From the UHGV virus genome UHGV-0091505: a stretch of 34,588 nt of DNA. The stretch is one strand, 5' to 3'. The position numbers and the translations under genes were made by a program. How positions within the stretch are numbered: position 1 is the first letter of the stretch; each line of letters starts with the position of its first letter. The notes under the pieces were generated by a model that saw only the letters and a program-made list of their open reading frames with translations, ran no database searches and had not been told where the DNA came from. Source of the stretch: a virus. Below are positions 26-28,969 of this stretch, one piece after another.

Positions 26-1426
26 TTAGTCTCCAGGATTCCCGGGGCGGTTCAGACCGCAATAAAATCCTGTTCCTGTACCGTTTGTGTAAAGTGCGTG
101 ACCTTCATGCCCTTGTGAAGCAGTGATATTTTTATGGTATATTCCTCCCACTTTTTGGTTGTCTTTGACTACACCCTTTACACCAAAATCACATGTGTCA
201 AATCTCGCGTATCCTATGCATGCACTTACTCCAGTTAGCCAAATGCCAGTTATGAATCCATAGACTTCAATGTCATTAATATAGAAATCAGAAATGTCCC
301 TTTCTTCATAATAGTTCAACCATACTGGACATCCATAATCTTTCCAGTCTCCAGATGTTACATATGAATATCCAAGGGTATTACTATTAATTACAGTTGT
401 CCTGTCCCCATTATATGTAAACTTCCAATATCCCAACATTTTCACTCGAGGTGTACGAATTTCGAACACTGGATAACCCCACAACAATTGCTCAAAGGTG
501 GCATTATCAGAAATTAGAACCATGTCAGGATTTGGAATTATAATCCACCCAGATATAGTGTATTTTAGATTTCCAAACTCTATTCTCTTTGCTCCACTAT
601 TCAGAGCAGCATTAATTGCTGCCATATCAGCATCGGCATCACCATTTCCTACCGGTCCGAAATCTGCAACAGTAACTGTTTCAGCCATCTTGTCATGGAC
701 TGTCCTTGTAACAGAATTAGAATAAGGTTGCTTAACTGCAACTAAAGCATCCCCCTTCCCATCGGAAGAACTTGCTAACTGAATAAATACATCAGATGCT
801 GATCCAGATGGAGGAATAACAACAATCGCATTACCATCATTATCAAATGCTGGCATCATATTCCGCCGAACTGCTGCTGGAGGTAACTGATTTATTGGCT
901 CTGGAACGCGGAGAGTTCGGCTAAGATTAGAGGATACAATGGTATCTACATAGTTTTTTGTAGCTGCATCCTGAGGGTCGCGTGGGTCTTTCAGATTACG
1001 AATATAGTTATTCAGAGCATTGTACCAGTTAGCAATACTTGACGGCTTGCGCAGTGCCAGGCTAAACCAACTGCGAACATGCTGAATCAGCATCGTTAGC
1101 TTATCAAGCGCATCCTCATGCACCTCGGCAAAGAACTTACCCTGATTGCGCAGATCAGTTTCCTGAGTAACTGGCAGTTCTCGTAATATAGAAATCTGAT
1201 AACCGTTAGCCAATGCCTTCGACAGAATTACATTACCGCCGTTGTACCCTCCCGCACCAGTTACTGTGTAATCAGTATCAAGAGCCAGCACAGCGATATT
1301 TTCATCAAGGTCAACCACCTGAACAACCAGGTCGGATTTGTTGAAAATGCGGAAGGTATACGGAAACGATGTCGTAACGCCGTTGCCGGTGTATTCGTTG
1401 TGGTCAACTTCGGTTGAGACCGTCAT
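26..1426 (-). CDS. tail fibre / tailspike protein
   Basis: 466-aa ORF; N-terminus MTVSTEVDHNEYTGNGVTTSFPYTFRIF is the conserved phage tail-fibre N-terminal anchor motif; mid region ADFGPVGNGDADADMAAINAALNSGA resembles the start of tailspike beta-helix domains; stop TAA at 26-28. Confidence 0.75.
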   Translation of the reverse strand: MTVSTEVDHNEYTGNGVTTSFPYTFRIFNKSDLVVQVVDLDENIAVLALDTDYTVTGAGGYNGGNVILSKALANGYQISILRELPVTQETDLRNQGKFFAEVHEDALDKLTMLIQHVRSWFSLALRKPSSIANWYNALNNYIRNLKDPRDPQDAATKNYVDTIVSSNLSRTLRVPEPINQLPPAAVRRNMMPAFDNDGNAIVVIPPSGSASDVFIQLASSSDGKGDALVAVKQPYSNSVTRTVHDKMAETVTVADFGPVGNGDADADMAAINAALNSGAKRIEFGNLKYTISGWIIIPNPDMVLISDNATFEQLLWGYPVFEIRTPRVKMLGYWKFTYNGDRTTVINSNTLGYSYVTSGDWKDYGCPVWLNYYEERDISDFYINDIEVYGFITGIWLTGVSACIGYARFDTCDFGVKGVVKDNQKVGGIYHKNITASQGHEGHALYTNGTGTGFYCGLNRPGNPGD

Positions 1427-1530
1427 GTTAAATCTCCAGATAGTCGCAGCACCCGTTGCGCCGCATATCTGGTTATTCTATTACCTGAAAAACCATATAT
1501 GGATATATAGCTCATGAATACGGACAGATA

Positions 1531-1545
1531 TTACCTTTCAGGTGA
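1531..1545. promoter_or_regulatory. operator-like site TTACCTTTCAGGTGA (variant of the prophage operator motif)
   Basis: TTACC-N5-GGTGA; same variant class as a site in the cI/cro intergenic region; lies 40 bp upstream of the LexA box. Confidence 0.35.
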
Positions 1546-1582
1546 TTCGCAAAACGTGCTGGATAGCAAACAAATTATTTGC

Positions 1583-1602
1583 TACTGTATAAATATACAG
1601 TT
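1583..1602 (+). promoter_or_regulatory. LexA (SOS) box TACTGTATAAATATACAGTT
   Basis: CTGT-N8-ACAG with AT-only spacer at 1585-1600, flanked TA..TT; about 20 nt upstream of SD GGAGAAG and ATG at 1622. Confidence 0.7.
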
Positions 1603-1621
1603 ATTGCATGGAGAAGATAAG

Positions 1622-1879
1622 ATGCAGCAGTATCACTATCCACTGGAAGACGGATTTACCGAAAGGATTCACACGCCGGGAGGCGTCAGGTCACTGGTGG
1701 AGGGATCGCACTTGATGAAATTACTCCGGGATCTCGATAAGGATGGATTTAATGTCGATGGCCCACTTGCCGAACTGACTGCACTGATTAACTACGTCAC
1801 CAGCTCACAGATGTCTATGCATGATCTGCAAACACATCTCGACTATTGTGCCGAACAATTACGAAAACAAACCAGATAA
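1622..1879 (+). CDS. small SOS-controlled antirepressor-like protein (standalone paralog of the C-terminal domain of the downstream Bro-N antirepressor)
   Basis: ATG at 1622 preceded by GGAGAAG; the track start at 1514 would place the LexA box inside the ORF; translated product aligns with the last ~75 aa of the 2192-2878 protein (PGGVRSLVEGSHLMKLL..LAELTALINYV..DLQTHLDY versus PSGVLGLTENSLLMNLL..AAELTTMFCYI..DIQTHAEY). Confidence 0.55.
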   Translation: MQQYHYPLEDGFTERIHTPGGVRSLVEGSHLMKLLRDLDKDGFNVDGPLAELTALINYVTSSQMSMHDLQTHLDYCAEQLRKQTR

Positions 1880-1882
1880 GGT

Positions 1883-1925
1883 TTGCAATTACCAAGTGGA
1901 GTACTTATATTTACCTTTGCGGTAA
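1883..1925 (+). promoter_or_regulatory. sigma70-type promoter (TTGCAA-17 nt-TATATT) with operator palindrome TTACCTTTGCGGTAA abutting the -10
   Basis: -35 at 1883-1888, -10 at 1906-1911, perfect TTACC-N5-GGTAA at 1911-1925; same -10/operator juxtaposition as at the pL-like promoter. Confidence 0.45.
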
Positions 1926-2019
1926 ATTTACATCGCACTCCTCTTGTGCCATAGTAATCTGGCACTGGCAAAATCCAGTGCCGGGATTGGCGTCCTTGGT
2001 TACTACAGAGGCACATATG

Positions 2020-2036
2020 CCGCATAAGCGGTTTTT
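2020..2036 (+). terminator. weak intrinsic terminator-like hairpin (CCGC-ATAA-GCGG followed by 7 T)
   Basis: Short GC stem plus T-run in the leader between the small antirepressor paralog and the Bro-N gene; stem is only 4-5 bp. Confidence 0.3.
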
Positions 2037-2191
2037 TTATGTGTAAAGCGCACCTATTCTATGGTGGGCTGTGTGGGGGCACCGAAAGGTGCGCCGGGTC
2101 CTTTGTAGCCGGTTACGCCAACCCTGCACAGTTCACCACCAACCGATTGGCGTCGGTAGTGGTGATTAACCTAACTACAAAGGTGATCACT

Positions 2192-2878
2192 ATGACTGCT
2201 AACGTAACCCCATCTGTTTTTCATTTTGAATCAGAAGCAACCATTCGAGCCATTGTTATTGATGGAAATCCCTGGTTTGTTGCCAAAGACGTTATTAAAG
2301 CTCTTCAACTGACAAACCCGACTATGTCAATAAAATCTCTTGATGATGATGAAAGGGCTAAATTTAACTTAGGCCGTCAAGGCGAAACCAATATTATCAA
2401 CGAGTCAGGCCTCTACACACTGATCCTCCGCTGCCGCGACGCAGTGACACCAGGCACTATCCCCTACCGCTTTCGTAAATGGGTTACAGGTGAGGTACTT
2501 CCTCAGATCCGCCGCACCGGAAGTTACATTAAAAACTCGCTCTCGCAGGAAGAACGGATAAAGATGGTTGCCGACCAGGTAGCCAACGCCACGGCGTCAG
2601 CAGTGATGCAGGCGATGAAGATAGAGAACAAAACCTACAACGCCCCACTGAAGCCCGGCTACCGCAGCCTGATACATTCTCCGTCTGGTGTTCTCGGCCT
2701 GACGGAGAACTCACTGCTGATGAATCTGCTGAACCAGTTACAGGAAGACGGGCACGATGTATCTGGCGCGGCAGCGGAGCTGACCACCATGTTCTGCTAC
2801 ATCGTCGGTGTGAGCAAATGCCTGCGTGATATCCAGACACACGCGGAGTACATCAACGACAAGGCTGGGTTCTTCTGA
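2192..2878 (+). CDS. phage antirepressor, Bro-N domain family (Ant-like)
   Basis: ATG at 2192 with SD AAAGGTGA; N-terminal region FHFESEATIRAIVIDGNPWFVAKDVIKALQL..ESGLYTLILRCRD is a Bro-N/antirepressor signature; C-terminal domain is paralogous to ORF 1622-1879. Confidence 0.8.
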   Translation: MTANVTPSVFHFESEATIRAIVIDGNPWFVAKDVIKALQLTNPTMSIKSLDDDERAKFNLGRQGETNIINESGLYTLILRCRDAVTPGTIPYRFRKWVTGEVLPQIRRTGSYIKNSLSQEERIKMVADQVANATASAVMQAMKIENKTYNAPLKPGYRSLIHSPSGVLGLTENSLLMNLLNQLQEDGHDVSGAAAELTTMFCYIVGVSKCLRDIQTHAEYINDKAGFF

Positions 2879-2924
2879 CGGGCGGCGGTGGCATTCGTTA
2901 AAAACAAGGCCGCGAAAGCGGCCT

Positions 2925-2936
2925 GTGACATGTCAC
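2925..2936. repeat. perfect 12-bp palindrome GTGACATGTCAC (copy 1 of 3)
   Basis: Directly follows an 18-bp GAAA-tetraloop hairpin (AGGCCGC-GAAA-GCGGCCT, 2907-2924) downstream of the antirepressor stop. Confidence 0.6.
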
Positions 2937-2943
2937 GCTCACG

Positions 2944-3084
2944 TTATGACAAGCCTATGTACCCTGCTACACCAGATAATATCAAAATAGCTGCAACAGC
3001 AAATTCGCCATCGTCAATGATACATTTACGGTTCATAACGCCAAGTGCAACAAGCGCAAACACAACAAGAATAAAAGCAATCAT
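2944..3084 (-). CDS. small hydrophobic two-segment membrane protein (46 aa), not in the supplied ORF track
   Basis: Hand translation: MIAFILVVFALVALGVMNRKCIIDDGEFAVAAILILSGVAGYIGLS; ATG 10 nt after the stop of the upstream 824-aa gene, same strand. Confidence 0.3.
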   Translation of the reverse strand: MIAFILVVFALVALGVMNRKCIIDDGEFAVAAILILSGVAGYIGLS

Positions 3085-3093
3085 TTCTCATCC

Positions 3094-5568
3094 TTATTGC
3101 GGAGTGACATCCTGTGGTCGCCACCAGTATGTCTGGTTAAACTCTTTCTTCGAACGTTGCTCCATTTTACGCAAATAACCTGGTGAAAAATACTCCTGCA
3201 TCTGGTTAAAGATCATGTGATCGAGAGCCGCCTTTAAGTACCAGAGATTCGCACCTGGCATCAGACCTTTCCCCAGCTTAACCAGATCACCACCAGTCTG
3301 CTCATTCTTCCCTTCCACAGCATTTAACGGTATGCCCTGAGCAATCTTCACTACGTCATCAACCAGGCCAGCTACCGGGCCAAGCATCGACGCCAGCGCG
3401 CCGCTTCCGTACCTAGTGTGATCTGACAATAAAAAGTCACCGTAAAGGCCAAGACCACCACCTTTCAGTAGAGCACCAAGCCAAAATTTAGCAGCATCTT
3501 CTCCTGTCATCTCGCGAGGATTACGACCAGACGCAAGGTCGTTAAGTTGCTGCGACAAAGCGCCAAGAATGGTCGTACTGGCAATAAACGTCGCAATATA
3601 TGCCGCACGCCCACCAGCAGACGGCATACCCATAGCGCGTGACCAGTGACGCATAACCACCGAGATAGGGAACGATTTAAACAGGAAAACACTTCTCGTT
3701 AATTCACCTTTCCATGTCCCACGCTGAATACCAGAACCGGTTATCAGTTGCTCACGTGCGCCAGGTGTAATAACAGCCATATCAACTTCTTCAGTTACGG
3801 CACCGAGCAGTTTACGCATTGCCTCAAATTTCACGCGTTCAGGCTCACCAAGATGTTTAACTACTGAATCAGGGATACGCATAATGCTTTCCGGTGTTAG
3901 CATCGTATTATTACCGTTCCCCCAGTCCTCCTGTTGCGCCAGCTTCCATACACTCCAGTCTGTGTCAGTAATCCCTTTACTTTTCAGGATACGAAAATCA
4001 GAGTCATCGAGGCTACGAAGGTCTGGTGTCCGTGACACTACTTCTCCCAGGCTTCCCATCATGGTTACGCCATAGGCGCGCTTGTGCGCATCTGACCATG
4101 CTGTAAGCCCACTGGCACGCATTACCGCCGTTGCCGCCCAACGAGACACAGACGGCCCCATATTATCCATCGCCCAGCGGTTAACGCTGCCAAGTAGAGA
4201 TTCCATCGCCAGACCAGCGCGGCGCGCCCGCGCAAGCTCAGTACGGTTCGTTGGGTCCATAGCTTCAAGCTGGTTGCGGAATAACTGGTTCATTGGAAGG
4301 TTGGTCACCTTCGCAGACAGATACATGGTTCCAAGATCAGAGAACGATGACAGCAACGCGGATCCGAGTCTGCTGGCAACCAGCCAGTTGCGGATATTGT
4401 CAGACCATCGCGCGATGTGAGGATTCGCAACAGGCTGTGTCTTTCCGGAAATAAAGTTGTACAGATTCTCTGTGTTGTTCGCCAGCCGCTCGACTTTACC
4501 GGTTTTACTCGGGTTAGCTGTTGCCGTTTCTGCCTTCACCTGATCAAGAAGGGAACGGAAAACATGATCGGGGTTTGGGCCATATGTTTCCACCAGAGCA
4601 ATATCTTTACTGATCCCTTCCAGGTGACCGACCATGATTTCCCATAGAGAGCGATCGCCATAAAGTTGCTGATATTGCAGATAGGAATCTGCATCTTTGA
4701 AATGTATCTGTCGTGATGCATTACCACGGTTAGCACGTGCACCGGAAATTCGCATTCCGGTATCAGTAAGCTTATTCAGCCCACCAGTAGCGATCGTGTT
4801 ATAAGCCTCTCCAAGAAATGCAGACAACTCGACATCGTTCATCAGTTGTCCATCGGCTCGGGTATAATATTTGCGATCCAGCTTACCTATAACATCGCTA
4901 ACCCATTTATCTTTTGATACCGCCCCAACCTTTCCCATAGAATGATGTTGAGGGATCCCCCAGTTTTCGAGATAGCCAATGTCCCCACCAGCATCATTAA
5001 ACCGGCGGCGCAGTAGCTCTGTCACTTCTCTCCACGCCTTAGCACCTTTTCTTGCTTTAGCATTGCCAGTATTTTGCCCTCGCATTTCATATACCAGGTC
5101 ACGCACGCCCGCTTCATCTTCAAACAGACCAAAAAAGCGAGGATCAACTGCTTCGAATGCCTCCTGCAATTGACTCAATGCATAATCACGGGTGGCTTTT
5201 GTTCTGGATTCAACAGAGAGGAAATTCGATTTACCGTCTGCATTAAAAGCAATAGTACGGTTAAGAGCGCCAAGTTTCCCATCAGCCCCTTGATAGCTAT
5301 TGATAAATTTATCCAATCTCTGACGTGCGGCTATAGTGAGGGCCACACGACGTTTCTTTAATACCGCTTCTCGCTGTAATTCTTCAGATGCCAATTGTGC
5401 TGCACGATATAGCCGCTCTGATTCGGAAAGTTGTCTCCATGACATCGGGTCATCACGAGCAATGGAGCGCATATTTCGATAAATGCGGTCTTCAATGTTC
5501 TGTATTTCTCGCGCCGTTAACGTGCGCTGCGCCGCCTGCTGAACCGCTTGTATACATTCCTGTCTCAT
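3094..5568 (-). CDS. internal virion / ejection protein (large, gp16-like position)
   Basis: 824-aa ORF in the podovirus core-protein block between the tail tubular genes and the tail fibre; glycine-rich hydrophobic stretch near C-terminus; assignment by position and size. Confidence 0.5.
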   Translation of the reverse strand: MRQECIQAVQQAAQRTLTAREIQNIEDRIYRNMRSIARDDPMSWRQLSESERLYRAAQLASEELQREAVLKKRRVALTIAARQRLDKFINSYQGADGKLGALNRTIAFNADGKSNFLSVESRTKATRDYALSQLQEAFEAVDPRFFGLFEDEAGVRDLVYEMRGQNTGNAKARKGAKAWREVTELLRRRFNDAGGDIGYLENWGIPQHHSMGKVGAVSKDKWVSDVIGKLDRKYYTRADGQLMNDVELSAFLGEAYNTIATGGLNKLTDTGMRISGARANRGNASRQIHFKDADSYLQYQQLYGDRSLWEIMVGHLEGISKDIALVETYGPNPDHVFRSLLDQVKAETATANPSKTGKVERLANNTENLYNFISGKTQPVANPHIARWSDNIRNWLVASRLGSALLSSFSDLGTMYLSAKVTNLPMNQLFRNQLEAMDPTNRTELARARRAGLAMESLLGSVNRWAMDNMGPSVSRWAATAVMRASGLTAWSDAHKRAYGVTMMGSLGEVVSRTPDLRSLDDSDFRILKSKGITDTDWSVWKLAQQEDWGNGNNTMLTPESIMRIPDSVVKHLGEPERVKFEAMRKLLGAVTEEVDMAVITPGAREQLITGSGIQRGTWKGELTRSVFLFKSFPISVVMRHWSRAMGMPSAGGRAAYIATFIASTTILGALSQQLNDLASGRNPREMTGEDAAKFWLGALLKGGGLGLYGDFLLSDHTRYGSGALASMLGPVAGLVDDVVKIAQGIPLNAVEGKNEQTGGDLVKLGKGLMPGANLWYLKAALDHMIFNQMQEYFSPGYLRKMEQRSKKEFNQTYWWRPQDVTPQ

Positions 5569-19506: not shown

Positions 19507-19583
19507 GTGGCATTAGCTCAGTTGGACAGAGCAACCGCCTTCTAAGCGGTTGGTCGCAGGTTCGAATCCTGCATGCCACGCCA
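19507..19583 (+). tRNA. tRNA-Arg (anticodon UCU), argU-like
   Basis: 77 nt cloverleaf folded by hand: acceptor GTGGCAT/ATGCCAC, D-arm GCTC/GAGC, anticodon stem ACCGC/GCGGT with loop CTTCTAA, T-arm GCAGG-TTCGAAT-CCTGC, discriminator G and encoded CCA. Confidence 0.85.
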
Positions 19584-28384: not shown

Positions 28385-28969
28385 ATGAAAAGTATCCAGG
28401 ACGTCCGCAGGCAAAATCTCAACGACTTGATCGACCGTGAATTCAATGGTGTTCAGACGCGGATGGCAGAAAAACTTGGAACTCAGGCAAATCTGGTAAA
28501 CCGCTGGGCTCTTGGCAAGAAGGTTATCGGCGACCAGGTTGCGCGAAAAATTGAAGCTGCCGCCAATAAACCCCGTAACTGGCTTGATATCGATCGCTCG
28601 CTTTCTCAGGAAGGTTTTCAGCCTGTCGGACCAAGCGACATTGGTCAACTGGCGGCTCACAACCTGGAACGCTGGATGAGCGAAAGCCGCGACCTTTCAA
28701 CACAGGGAAAACTTCACCGCGCATCCGGCGTCGCCCAGGTGACAATCAGCCGCCTGTTAAACAATGAGGTCAGCGTTTCCATTTCCACCCTGGAGAATGT
28801 TGCATCCGCATTCGGGCGTCACGGCTATGAATTACTGATTCACCCGCACGACCCTGCGACCATCAACTATGACCGCTCGCGCTACGCATTGTTACCCGAA
28901 ACCGAGAAAGCAAAGATCGAAAGTTACATTGAATTTGTCATCAACCAGAACGAAAAAAACAAACAATAA
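28385..28969 (+). CDS. prophage repressor, dual-HTH type without S24 peptidase domain
   Basis: 194 aa; two HTH-like segments (QTRMAEKLGTQANLVNRWALGKK and HRASGVAQVTISRLLNNE); no Ser-Lys autocleavage motif recognisable; divergent from cro, same strand as the early-left operon. Confidence 0.7.
   Translation: MKSIQDVRRQNLNDLIDREFNGVQTRMAEKLGTQANLVNRWALGKKVIGDQVARKIEAAANKPRNWLDIDRSLSQEGFQPVGPSDIGQLAAHNLERWMSESRDLSTQGKLHRASGVAQVTISRLLNNEVSVSISTLENVASAFGRHGYELLIHPHDPATINYDRSRYALLPETEKAKIESYIEFVINQNEKNKQ

What the first reader, a model, noticed from the sequence alone, without database searches (positions are those of the whole stretch)
1531..1879. Near-consensus LexA box driving a small standalone paralog of the antirepressor C-terminal domain
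A CTGT-N8-ACAG SOS box (1585-1600) sits 20 nt before the SD/ATG of an 85-aa ORF whose product aligns along its length with the C-terminal ~75 aa of the adjacent Bro-N antirepressor. The prophage repressor shows no autocleavage domain, so an SOS-controlled antirepressor would be the induction trigger, as established for Gifsy-type prophages and coliphage 186 Tum. A domain-only antirepressor paralog encoded inside the virion gene cluster, far from the immunity region, is not a textbook arrangement.
Basis: partly seen in the sequence, partly recalled or inferred. Interest (0 to 1): 0.8.

Follow-up and report, generated by a model that had tools for sequence, protein, structure and literature searches.

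The report
SOS-controlled small phage antirepressor, already known
The LexA box and the 85-aa gene are real, but they are the E. coli phiV10-type copy of the small SOS-controlled antirepressor Ant, already worked out genetically and by crystal structure in Salmonella phage SPC32H, so the core finding is ordinary.

Summary
A near-perfect LexA box (TACTGTATAAATATACAGTT, 1583-1602) lies 9 nt before the SD and 21 nt before the ATG of an 85-aa ORF (1622-1879). That protein matches the C-terminal 78 aa of the adjacent Bro-N antirepressor (40% identity, E 8e-16). The prophage repressor (28385-28969) has no S24 cleavage domain.

It is not new. The window is a phiV10/epsilon15-like (Uetakevirus) prophage. 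The 85-aa protein matches SPC32H Ant (PDB 5D50_E, E 2e-46), and the repressor matches SPC32H Rep (5D50_A, E 4e-42). The gene sits in the same tailspike-proximal slot, and the box aligns column for column with the SPC32H box. SPC32N differs there by ACAG>AAAG, which I recall as the published constitutive-Ant mutation.

The small Ant is found throughout the genus; the Bro-N protein is an accessory module. That module carries its own control: an IsrK-like RNA (1962-2038) and a P1-type C4 antisense RNA (2057-2143). Their a/b target sites covary across relatives and cover the Bro-N ant SD.

The Ant-like C-domain occurs only in phages that carry this Rep type. Putative Rep operators (ATTACC-N5-GGTAAT) flank the small ant gene.

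Only the pairing of the two antirepressors may be undescribed.

The parts
1530..1546 (.). Putative Rep operator palindrome, ATTACCTTTCAGGTGAT, upstream of the ant promoter and facing the divergent tailspike gene
   Evidence: ATTACC-N5-GGTAAT occurs 10 times with up to 2 mismatches, against 0.89 expected. TTACC-N5-GGTAA occurs 11 times against 0.99 expected. The homologous epsilon15 site is annotated 'repressor; lysogeny'. The site is conserved in the alignment.
1583..1602 (.). LexA box TACTGTATAAATATACAGTT, with the CTGT-N8-ACAG core at 1585-1600. A -10-like TATAAA (1588-1593) lies inside it. A weak -35-like TAGCAA lies at 1564-1569. The promoter assignment is inferred.
   Evidence: PWM score 27.65 bits against 10.45 for the next best site. 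The box aligns with the SPC32H box, where SPC32N has ACAG>AAAG. It lies at -39 from the ATG in six phages.
1610..1613 (+). Shine-Dalgarno GGAG of small ant
   Evidence: The surrounding GCATGGAGAAGA..GATG is invariant across the relatives.
1622..1879 (+). Small antirepressor Ant (85 aa), ortholog of SPC32H Ant
   Evidence: phmmer against PDB 5D50_E 'Anti-repressor protein' gives E 2.1e-46 over residues 2-84. phrog_450 gives 2.9e-47. The syntenic gene is annotated ant in KC911856.
1910..1926 (.). Second operator-like palindrome, TTTACCTTTGCGGTAAA, abutting the -35 of the IsrK promoter
   Evidence: The half-sites are conserved and the spacer varies across 5 phages.
1927..1955 (+). Promoter-like site, TTTACA-17-CATAGT with an upstream TG. 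The IsrK model starts 7 nt downstream.
1962..2038 (+). IsrK-like sRNA. It carries the C4 decoy sites a1 (TTGGCGT, 1987-1993) and b1 (CTACAGAGG, 2003-2011) and an intrinsic terminator at 2019-2038.
   Evidence: Rfam RF01394 scores 63.8 bits (gathering score 50). RF03163 c4-a1b1 scores 29.2 bits, below its gathering score. Terminator. Covariation.
2057..2143 (+). C4-type antisense RNA, with b' (CCTTTGTAG) at 2100-2108 and a' (ACGCCAA) at 2115-2121
   Evidence: Rfam RF01695 scores 79.5 bits (gathering score 45), E 3e-14, over the full model. The same RNA is found in phiV10, Tyrion and Klebsiella ST11-OXA245phi3.2.
2147..2183 (+). C4 targets in the Bro-N ant leader: a2 (TTGGCGT, 2147-2153) and b2 (CTACAAAGG, 2175-2183). 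b2 overlaps the SD AAGGTGA (2180-2186).
   Evidence: a1, a' and a2 covary three ways in Tyrion. b1, b' and b2 covary three ways in phiV10, ZX5 and the Klebsiella phage.
2192..2878 (+). Bro-N antirepressor (228 aa, AnrP-like). Residues 147-224 (nt 2630-2863) form the Ant-like C-terminal domain.
   Evidence: Pfam Bro-N, 4.6e-20. The C-domain matches 5D50_E at 6e-14. BLASTP against the small Ant. In ZX5, a homolog 82% identical overall and 98.8% identical in the C-terminal 85 aa lowers lysogeny about 1000-fold when overexpressed.
28385..28969 (+). Rep, the non-cleavable two-HTH prophage repressor and presumed target of Ant
   Evidence: 5D50_A 'Repressor' E 4e-42. 42% identity to SPC32H Rep. 100% identity to the phiV10 and ZX5 repressors. 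No S24 domain.

Best explanation
Region 1583-1879 is the SOS-sensing arm of a phiV10/epsilon15-type prophage switch, orthologous to the SPC32H Rep/Ant system.

In the lysogen, host LexA sits on the box at 1583-1602. The box overlaps the ant promoter, so the 85-aa Ant is kept off. DNA damage leads to LexA self-cleavage and Ant is made. Ant binds the C-terminal tetramerisation (CAD) region of the non-cleavable repressor Rep (28385-28969). This breaks the DNA-binding Rep tetramer into dimers and derepresses the lytic genes.

Shown here: the sequence features, the homology, the synteny and the conservation of the box. Shown elsewhere for SPC32H: LexA control, Ant-Rep binding and induction. Inferred for this prophage: that the same steps operate.

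The neighbouring Bro-N gene is a second, accessory antirepressor. It carries the same Rep-targeting domain fused to a Bro-N domain. It is controlled separately by a P1 immI-like C4 antisense RNA, which masks its SD, and by an IsrK-like decoy RNA.
For: - Small protein against PDB 5D50_E (SPC32H anti-repressor): E 2.1e-46, aligned end to end.
- Repressor against 5D50_A: E 4e-42 with the same two-HTH architecture and no S24 domain.
- Same gene order in SPC32H, where the gene is annotated ant: tailspike on the minus strand, ant on the plus strand, then the small membrane protein and the 824-aa virion protein on the minus strand.
- LexA box: 27.65 bits, unique in the window, and at -39 from the ATG in six phages.
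- SPC32H and SPC32N differ in the aligned box by ACAG>AAAG. From memory of Kim & Ryu 2013, this is the LexA-site mutation that makes Ant constitutive.
- Secondary literature: LexA cleavage leads to Ant, which inhibits the repressor (PMC7380047). [quoted passage not shown] The Rep CAD domain mediates both tetramerisation and Ant binding (PMC9986798).
- The Ant-like domain (34 phage records), the ant region (35 records) and Rep (37 records) occur in largely the same set of Uetakevirus-type phages.
- Bro-N module: C4 at 79.5 bits and IsrK at 63.8 bits, covarying a/b sites over the SD, and ZX5 Bro-N Ant overexpression lowering lysogeny about 1000-fold with an identical Rep.
Against: - Nothing was tested in this E. 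coli prophage. LexA binding, Ant-Rep binding and induction are all inferred from SPC32H.
- Rep is only 42% identical to SPC32H Rep, although Ant is closely conserved (E 2.1e-46 against 5D50_E).
- The sigma-70 scan found no promoter overlapping the box at its threshold. The -35/-10 assignment is therefore weak.
- The two primary SPC32H papers were not held in the library. Details of those experiments rest on PDB and GenBank annotation, secondary citations and my memory.
Confidence: 0.85

Rival explanations
1. The Bro-N antirepressor under C4/IsrK control is the real induction trigger, and the small Ant is redundant or only modulates it. For example, the two could form mixed oligomers through the shared domain.
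For: The two proteins share a homologous 78-aa domain, and that domain makes tetramers in SPC32H Ant. ZX5 Bro-N Ant overexpression shifts the phage towards lysis.
Against: Several genus members lack the Bro-N gene altogether: SPC32H, epsilon15, BUCT554 and 65FD. In SPC32H the small Ant is the protein crystallised in complex with Rep; that it suffices for induction there is from my memory of Kim & Ryu 2013. phiV10's own Bro-N gene is frameshifted inside the C-domain. The LexA box sits in front of the small gene only.
Confidence: 0.08
2. The LexA box mainly controls the divergent tailspike gene or some other function, and its position next to the small ORF is incidental.
For: The tailspike gene (1426..26, minus strand) is divergent. 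It lies beyond a minus-strand terminator-like site at 2907-2924, so it may need its own promoter in this intergenic region.
Against: The box keeps a fixed 39-nt distance from the ant ATG in six phages, while the sequence towards the tailspike gene varies. The box is about 157 nt from the tailspike start. The SPC32N box mutation is linked to constitutive Ant (plus my memory of Kim & Ryu 2013).
Confidence: 0.03
3. The box is a chance AT-rich palindrome and the ORF is not expressed.
For: The bare CTGT-N8-ACAG pattern is not rarer than chance in this window.
Against: The 20-mer scores 27.65 bits against a shuffle maximum of 18.4. It is conserved across genera. The protein has a solved ortholog and more than 130 close homolog clusters of 85-86 aa.
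Confidence: 0.01

Closest known systems
Salmonella phage SPC32H Rep/Ant lytic switch (Kim & Ryu 2013, J Virol 87:11775; Kim et al. 2016, PNAS 113:E2480; PDB 5D50, 5D4Z)
   Same: Same genus, and the same gene slot next to the tailspike gene. The Ant ortholog matches 5D50_E at E 2.1e-46. The LexA box is at the same -39 position. The repressor is of the same non-cleavable two-HTH Rep type.
   Different: The host is E. coli rather than Salmonella. Rep is only 42% identical. This prophage also carries an IsrK/C4/Bro-N-Ant module inserted directly after ant, which SPC32H lacks. ant has no terminator of its own here, whereas epsilon15 has one annotated just after gp19.
P1/P7 immI operon (c4 antisense RNA - icd - ant1/2; Citron & Schuster 1990, from memory)
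   Same: For the Bro-N gene only. There is a C4 RNA above the Rfam gathering score. Duplicated a/b target sites lie upstream (a1b1) and over the antirepressor SD (a2b2). A putative primary-repressor operator sits at the operon promoter.
   Different: There is no icd gene. The antirepressor is a Bro-N fusion unrelated to P1 Ant. The operator type belongs to the epsilon15-like Rep, not to C1.
Gifsy-1 IsrK-orf45-AnrP module (Hershko-Shalev et al. 2016, PMC4825925)
   Same: An IsrK homolog with its own promoter and a leaky terminator precedes a Bro-N-type antirepressor. A short upstream ORF lies between them, and here it is fused in frame to ant, as the paper reports for S. dysenteriae.
   Different: Here the module sits directly downstream of a LexA-controlled small Ant gene. 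Its antirepressor ends in the Ant-like domain specific to epsilon15-type Rep.
LexA-controlled antirepressors Tum (186), GfoA/GfhA (Gifsy) and AntC (N15)
   Same: The logic is the same: a non-cleavable repressor is inactivated by a small LexA-repressed protein (PMC3121763; PMC7380047).
   Different: No sequence relationship emerged. Pfam gave no significant family for the small protein, and PHROG placed it only in phrog_450, phrog_15539 and phrog_1760. Kim & Ryu describe it as a distinct class (from memory).
P22 immI (mnt-arc-ant with sar RNA)
   Same: The antirepressor locus lies among late genes next to the tailspike gene, far from the primary immunity region (general knowledge).
   Different: Control there is by Mnt/Arc and sar RNA rather than LexA, and the Ant protein is unrelated.

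Membership tests
SPC32H-type small Ant (Uetakevirus LexA-controlled antirepressor) | An approximately 86-aa protein homologous to SPC32H Ant | tested here: met
   5D50_E E 2.1e-46 over residues 2-84. phrog_450 2.9e-47.
SPC32H-type small Ant (Uetakevirus LexA-controlled antirepressor) | LexA operator overlapping the ant promoter directly upstream | tested here: met
   Met at the sequence level only. PWM score 27.65 bits. The box aligns with the SPC32H box, which is mutated in SPC32N, and lies at -39 in six phages.
SPC32H-type small Ant (Uetakevirus LexA-controlled antirepressor) | Cognate Rep: two HTH domains, a C-terminal tetramerisation/Ant-binding region and no autocleavage domain | tested here: met
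   5D50_A E 4e-42 with a full-length alignment. Only HTH domains in Pfam. 46% identity over the last 39 residues.
SPC32H-type small Ant (Uetakevirus LexA-controlled antirepressor) | Syntenic position between the tailspike gene and the virion-protein genes | tested here: met
SPC32H-type small Ant (Uetakevirus LexA-controlled antirepressor) | LexA binding, Ant-Rep complex formation and Ant-dependent SOS induction | not testable with these tools
   Needs EMSA, pull-down and induction assays.
P1 immI-type C4 antisense control (applies to the Bro-N ant gene) | C4 RNA with the conserved fold | tested here: met
   RF01695 79.5 bits against a gathering score of 45, full model. Also found in three relatives.
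P1 immI-type C4 antisense control (applies to the Bro-N ant gene) | Complementary a/b targets, with b2 covering the RBS of the downstream gene | tested here: met
   a2 lies at 2147-2153 and b2 at 2175-2183, overlapping the SD at 2180-2186. There are three-way compensatory changes across 5 phages.
P1 immI-type C4 antisense control (applies to the Bro-N ant gene) | Operon promoter under the primary repressor (the Op51 equivalent) | tested here: inconclusive
   A conserved operator-like palindrome at 1910-1926 abuts the -35. Binding is untested.
P1 immI-type C4 antisense control (applies to the Bro-N ant gene) | icd gene between c4 and ant | tested here: not met
   No separate ORF is present. Only an orf45-like reading frame at 2039-2191, fused in frame to ant.
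Tum/GfoA-type antirepressors | Sequence homology to Tum or GfoA | not tested
   No direct comparison was run. Pfam and PHROG gave no such family.

The most novel reading that the evidence does not exclude
In phiV10-type prophages the SOS-controlled small Ant and the Bro-N::Ant-domain fusion may form a two-stage latch on one repressor.

Stage 1: LexA cleavage releases small Ant. Because ant has no terminator of its own before the IsrK terminator, the SOS-induced ant mRNA would carry the IsrK a1/b1 decoy as its 3' end.

Stage 2: inactivating Rep would open the Rep-operator-flanked IsrK/C4/ant promoter. The extra a1/b1 RNA would also titrate C4, so the Bro-N Ant is translated and locks Rep off.

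The C-terminal domain of Bro-N antirepressors would then be an exchangeable repressor-specificity module, here drawn from the resident small Ant family.
Probability: 0.2. Interest if true: 0.5.

Novelty: already known. Interest (0 to 1): 0.2.

Why it matters
The core finding only extends an established switch (SPC32H Rep/Ant) to its E. coli relatives. The locus is common there: the full ant-IsrK-C4-Bro-N ant stretch is present in 293 of 5,426 complete E. coli genomes.

Two practical points follow.

1. The small gene is almost always annotated 'hypothetical protein' in E. coli records and in phiV10. It could safely be re-annotated as the SOS-controlled antirepressor.

2. The ZX5 study of the lysis-lysogeny regulators examined only the Bro-N protein and never mentions LexA or SPC32H, so it overlooks the likely primary trigger.

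The modestly interesting residue is the coexistence of two differently regulated antirepressors that share one repressor-targeting domain. This offers a tractable case of how Bro-N antirepressors acquire specificity.

Tried and rejected
- The two primary SPC32H papers could not be read. The DOI and PMC look-ups failed. I relied on PDB molecule names, the GenBank ant annotation, the SPC32H/SPC32N sequence difference and secondary citations.
- The sigma-70 scan did not call a promoter over the LexA box. My -35 TAGCAA / -10 TATAAA assignment is by eye and weak.
- RNA duplex prediction on full-length C4 against its flanks gave over-extended, uninformative duplexes, because intramolecular structure is ignored. 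I replaced it with explicit a/b site comparison and covariation.
- I considered that the Ant-like C-domain might be a generic oligomerisation tail of Bro-N antirepressors, since Stx phages share the C4 element upstream of the Bro-N gene. I rejected this because tblastn finds the C-domain only in the 34 Uetakevirus-type records that also hold Rep.
- I considered the longer 121-aa ORF from ATG 1514. I rejected it because it would span the LexA box and lacks an SD, and because the SPC32H crystal chain and most homologs are 85-86 aa.
- The Pfam hit to DUF724 (E 0.005, far below the cut-off) was ignored.

Full report
**1. Observation**

The sequence shows TACTGTATAAATATACAGTT at 1583-1602, with the CTGT-N8-ACAG core at 1585-1600. 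GGAG follows at 1610-1613 and the ATG at 1622. The ORF ends with a stop at 1877-1879, giving 85 aa.

The bare 8-base pattern is not informative. There are three exact copies in the window, and with one mismatch there are 15 matches against 13 expected. The full 20-mer is different. I built a symmetrised weight matrix from 21 E. coli LexA operators recalled from memory. On it the site scores 27.65 bits, above all the training sites. The next best site in the 34.6-kb window scores 10.45, and the best of 200 shuffles scores 18.4.

The 85-aa protein aligns without gaps to residues 147-224 of the adjacent 228-aa Bro-N protein (2192-2878). The match is 31/78 identical, E 8e-16. One PHROG profile, phrog_450, matches both proteins (2.9e-47 and 4e-36). 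The repressor at 28385-28969 has only HTH domains and no S24 peptidase. All elements of the observation are confirmed.

**2. What it is**

The window is a phiV10/epsilon15-like podovirus prophage of the genus Uetakevirus. The region 1400-2900 is 93-96% identical to phiV10, vB_EcoP_ZX5, TL-2011b and others. The gene order matches phiV10.

The 85-aa protein matches chain E of PDB 5D50, 'Anti-repressor protein' of Salmonella phage SPC32H, at E 2.1e-46 over its whole length. The window repressor matches chain A of the same entry, 'Repressor', at E 4e-42. It is 42% identical overall with the same two-HTH layout. It is 100% identical to the phiV10 and ZX5 repressors.

In SPC32H the syntenic gene is annotated ant. 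It lies after the minus-strand tailspike gene and before the small membrane protein and the large virion protein.

Aligning the upstream regions places the window's box column for column on the SPC32H box. SPC32H and SPC32N differ in this stretch at a single position in the box, TACAG>TAAAG. From memory of Kim & Ryu 2013, SPC32N is the variant in which a LexA-site point mutation makes Ant constitutive.

The box sits exactly 39 nt before the ATG in the window, phiV10, SPC32H, epsilon15, Enterobacter phage BUCT554 and Salmonella phage 65FD. Klebsiella relatives carry a one-mismatch version.

**3. Mechanism**

Secondary sources describe the SPC32H system as follows:
- LexA self-cleavage allows synthesis of Ant, which inhibits the repressor by protein-protein contact (PMC7380047).
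- Rep's C-terminal CAD/TetDloop domain mediates both tetramerisation and Ant binding (PMC9986798).

By orthology I assign the same mechanism here. Binding and induction in this E. coli prophage are inferred.

The promoter is the weakest link. A -10-like TATAAA (1588-1593) lies inside the box, with a poor -35 (TAGCAA, 1564-1569). The consensus scan called nothing there.

**4.

*RNA regulators between the two genes.* Two Rfam families score above their gathering thresholds between the two antirepressor genes. IsrK lies at 1962-2038 (63.8 bits, gathering score 50). The P1-type C4 antisense RNA lies at 2057-2143 (79.5 bits, gathering score 45). A sub-threshold c4-a1b1 hit overlaps IsrK.

*Target sites.* The C4 unpaired segment carries b' (CCTTTGTAG, 2100-2108) and a' (ACGCCAA, 2115-2121). 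Complementary sites occur twice:
- a1/b1 inside IsrK, at 1987-1993 and 2003-2011;
- a2/b2 in the Bro-N ant leader, at 2147-2153 and 2175-2183.

b2 overlaps the SD AAGGTGA.

*Covariation.* Across five phages the three copies change together. Tyrion has GGTC/GACC where the others have GGCG/CGCC. phiV10 and ZX5 have lost one base in b1, b' and b2 alike. The Klebsiella phage has a different b triplet set.

*Promoter and terminator.* A promoter-like site (TTTACA-17-CATAGT, 1927-1955) ends 7 nt before the IsrK start. The only plus-strand terminator between 1400 and 3100 is the IsrK terminator at 2019-2038.

*Comparison with known modules.* This module is the counterpart of the Gifsy-1 isrK-orf45-anrP locus. 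There, IsrK supplied in trans activates translation of the antirepressor more than 100-fold (PMC4825925). It also corresponds to the P1 immI c4-ant arrangement (from memory).

**5. Relationship of the two antirepressors**

The small ant gene is present in all genus members examined. The IsrK/C4/Bro-N module is present in phiV10-like phages, Tyrion and one Klebsiella phage. It is absent from SPC32H, epsilon15, BUCT554 and 65FD. In phiV10 itself the Bro-N gene is frameshifted within the C-domain.

tblastn with the C-domain (aa 144-228) finds only 34 phage records. All are from the same Escherichia, Salmonella, Klebsiella and Enterobacter Uetakevirus-type phages that make up the 37 records with a Rep homolog. 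More than 100 Stx-phage records also match the region; the two listed match only the C4 stretch.

I conclude that the C-domain is a Rep-specific targeting module, and that the Bro-N fusion is an accessory to the conserved small Ant.

ZX5 has an identical Rep, and its Bro-N Ant is 98.8% identical to the window's over the C-terminal 85 aa. Overexpressing it reduced lysogens from 10^9 to 10^6 per mL (PMC9782041). That paper does not mention the small gene, LexA or SPC32H.

**6. Putative Rep operators**

ATTACC-N5-GGTAAT occurs 10 times (up to 2 mismatches) against 0.89 expected. The core TTACC-N5-GGTAA occurs 11 times against 0.99 expected. The sites cluster around rep (28267, 28315, 29027, 29089) and in front of the leftward operons (25922, 25984).

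Two copies flank the small ant gene. One lies at 1530-1546 upstream. The other, at 1910-1926, abuts the -35 of the IsrK promoter and has conserved half-sites with a variable spacer in five phages. The epsilon15 GenBank record annotates the same motif as 'repressor; lysogeny', both next to rep and upstream of gp19, the Ant ortholog.

This suggests Rep also gates the IsrK/C4/Bro-N ant operon, as C1 gates P1 immI. It may also gate the tailspike promoter. None of this was tested.

**7. Novelty and verdict**

The finding as stated is a LexA-repressed small antirepressor that triggers induction of a prophage with a non-cleavable repressor, encoded beside the tailspike gene. That is the published SPC32H system in a congeneric E. 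coli prophage, so it is already known.

The locus is common: 293 of 5,426 complete E. coli genomes carry at least 80% of the stretch 1427-2900. It is routinely annotated as hypothetical.

The only part I could not find described is the tandem of two differently regulated antirepressors that share one Rep-targeting domain. A linked possibility is that the SOS-induced ant transcript, which lacks its own terminator, carries the IsrK decoy and so couples LexA to C4 derepression. I give this two-stage latch about 0.2 probability and moderate interest if true.

Noticed in passing
window 1962-2143 and 2147-2183: IsrK-like sRNA and P1-type C4 antisense RNA lie between the two antirepressor genes. Their a1/b1, a'/b' and a2/b2 complementarities covary three ways across five phages. 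b2 covers the SD of the Bro-N ant gene.
   Followed up: yes
window 1530-1546, 1910-1926, 19169, 22315, 22333, 25921, 25983, 28267, 28314, 29026, 29088: The palindrome ATTACC-N5-GGTAAT is roughly ten-fold enriched over chance. It matches sites annotated 'repressor; lysogeny' in the epsilon15 record. These are likely Rep operators. Two of them flank the small ant gene, and one abuts the IsrK promoter -35.
   Followed up: partly
window 2039-2191: An ATG immediately after the IsrK terminator opens a frame that runs through the C4 RNA and is fused in frame to the Bro-N ant gene, giving a 279-aa ORF. It corresponds to Gifsy-1 orf45, which that paper reports as fused to anrP in S. dysenteriae. Indels among relatives suggest the region evolves as RNA rather than protein.
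   Followed up: partly
L001 (phiV10 NC_007804.2) 3793-4472: The reference phiV10 Bro-N antirepressor is frameshifted inside the Ant-like C-domain and is annotated as two CDSs, p23 and p22. The window, ZX5 and TL-2011b have it intact.
   Followed up: yes
L011 (TL-2011b JQ011317.1) 2002-3090: About 1.1 kb is inserted between the small ant stop and the Bro-N ant gene. It is annotated only as 'similar to hypothetical protein' on the opposite strand. It would separate the two antirepressor units.
   Followed up: no
window 19507-19583 (+): A tRNA-Arg (anticodon TCT) lies on the plus strand inside the minus-strand late/structural region, close to one of the operator-like palindromes (19169).
   Followed up: no
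window 26-1426 (-): The tailspike/tail-fibre ORF is 466 aa. Annotated homologs are longer: the phiV10p25 CDS is 2,628 nt and the SPC32H tsp CDS is 2,310 nt. DNA similarity to the Salmonella relatives extended only a few bases into the tailspike start (query base 1-2).
   Followed up: no
window 2907-2924 (-): A strong minus-strand terminator-like hairpin lies just after the 46-aa membrane-protein ORF (2944-3084). It would end leftward transcription of the virion genes before it runs antisense into the Bro-N ant gene. If so, the tailspike gene needs its own promoter in the 1427-1600 intergenic region.
   Followed up: no
proteins P0005, P0016, P0020, P0033-P0037: Many database entries call the small Ant gene as a 126-127-aa protein. 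One such cluster has 833 members. This is presumably an N-terminally over-extended ORF call like the window's 121-aa ORF from ATG 1514, which would run across the LexA box. It looks like a systematic start-site mis-annotation.
   Followed up: no
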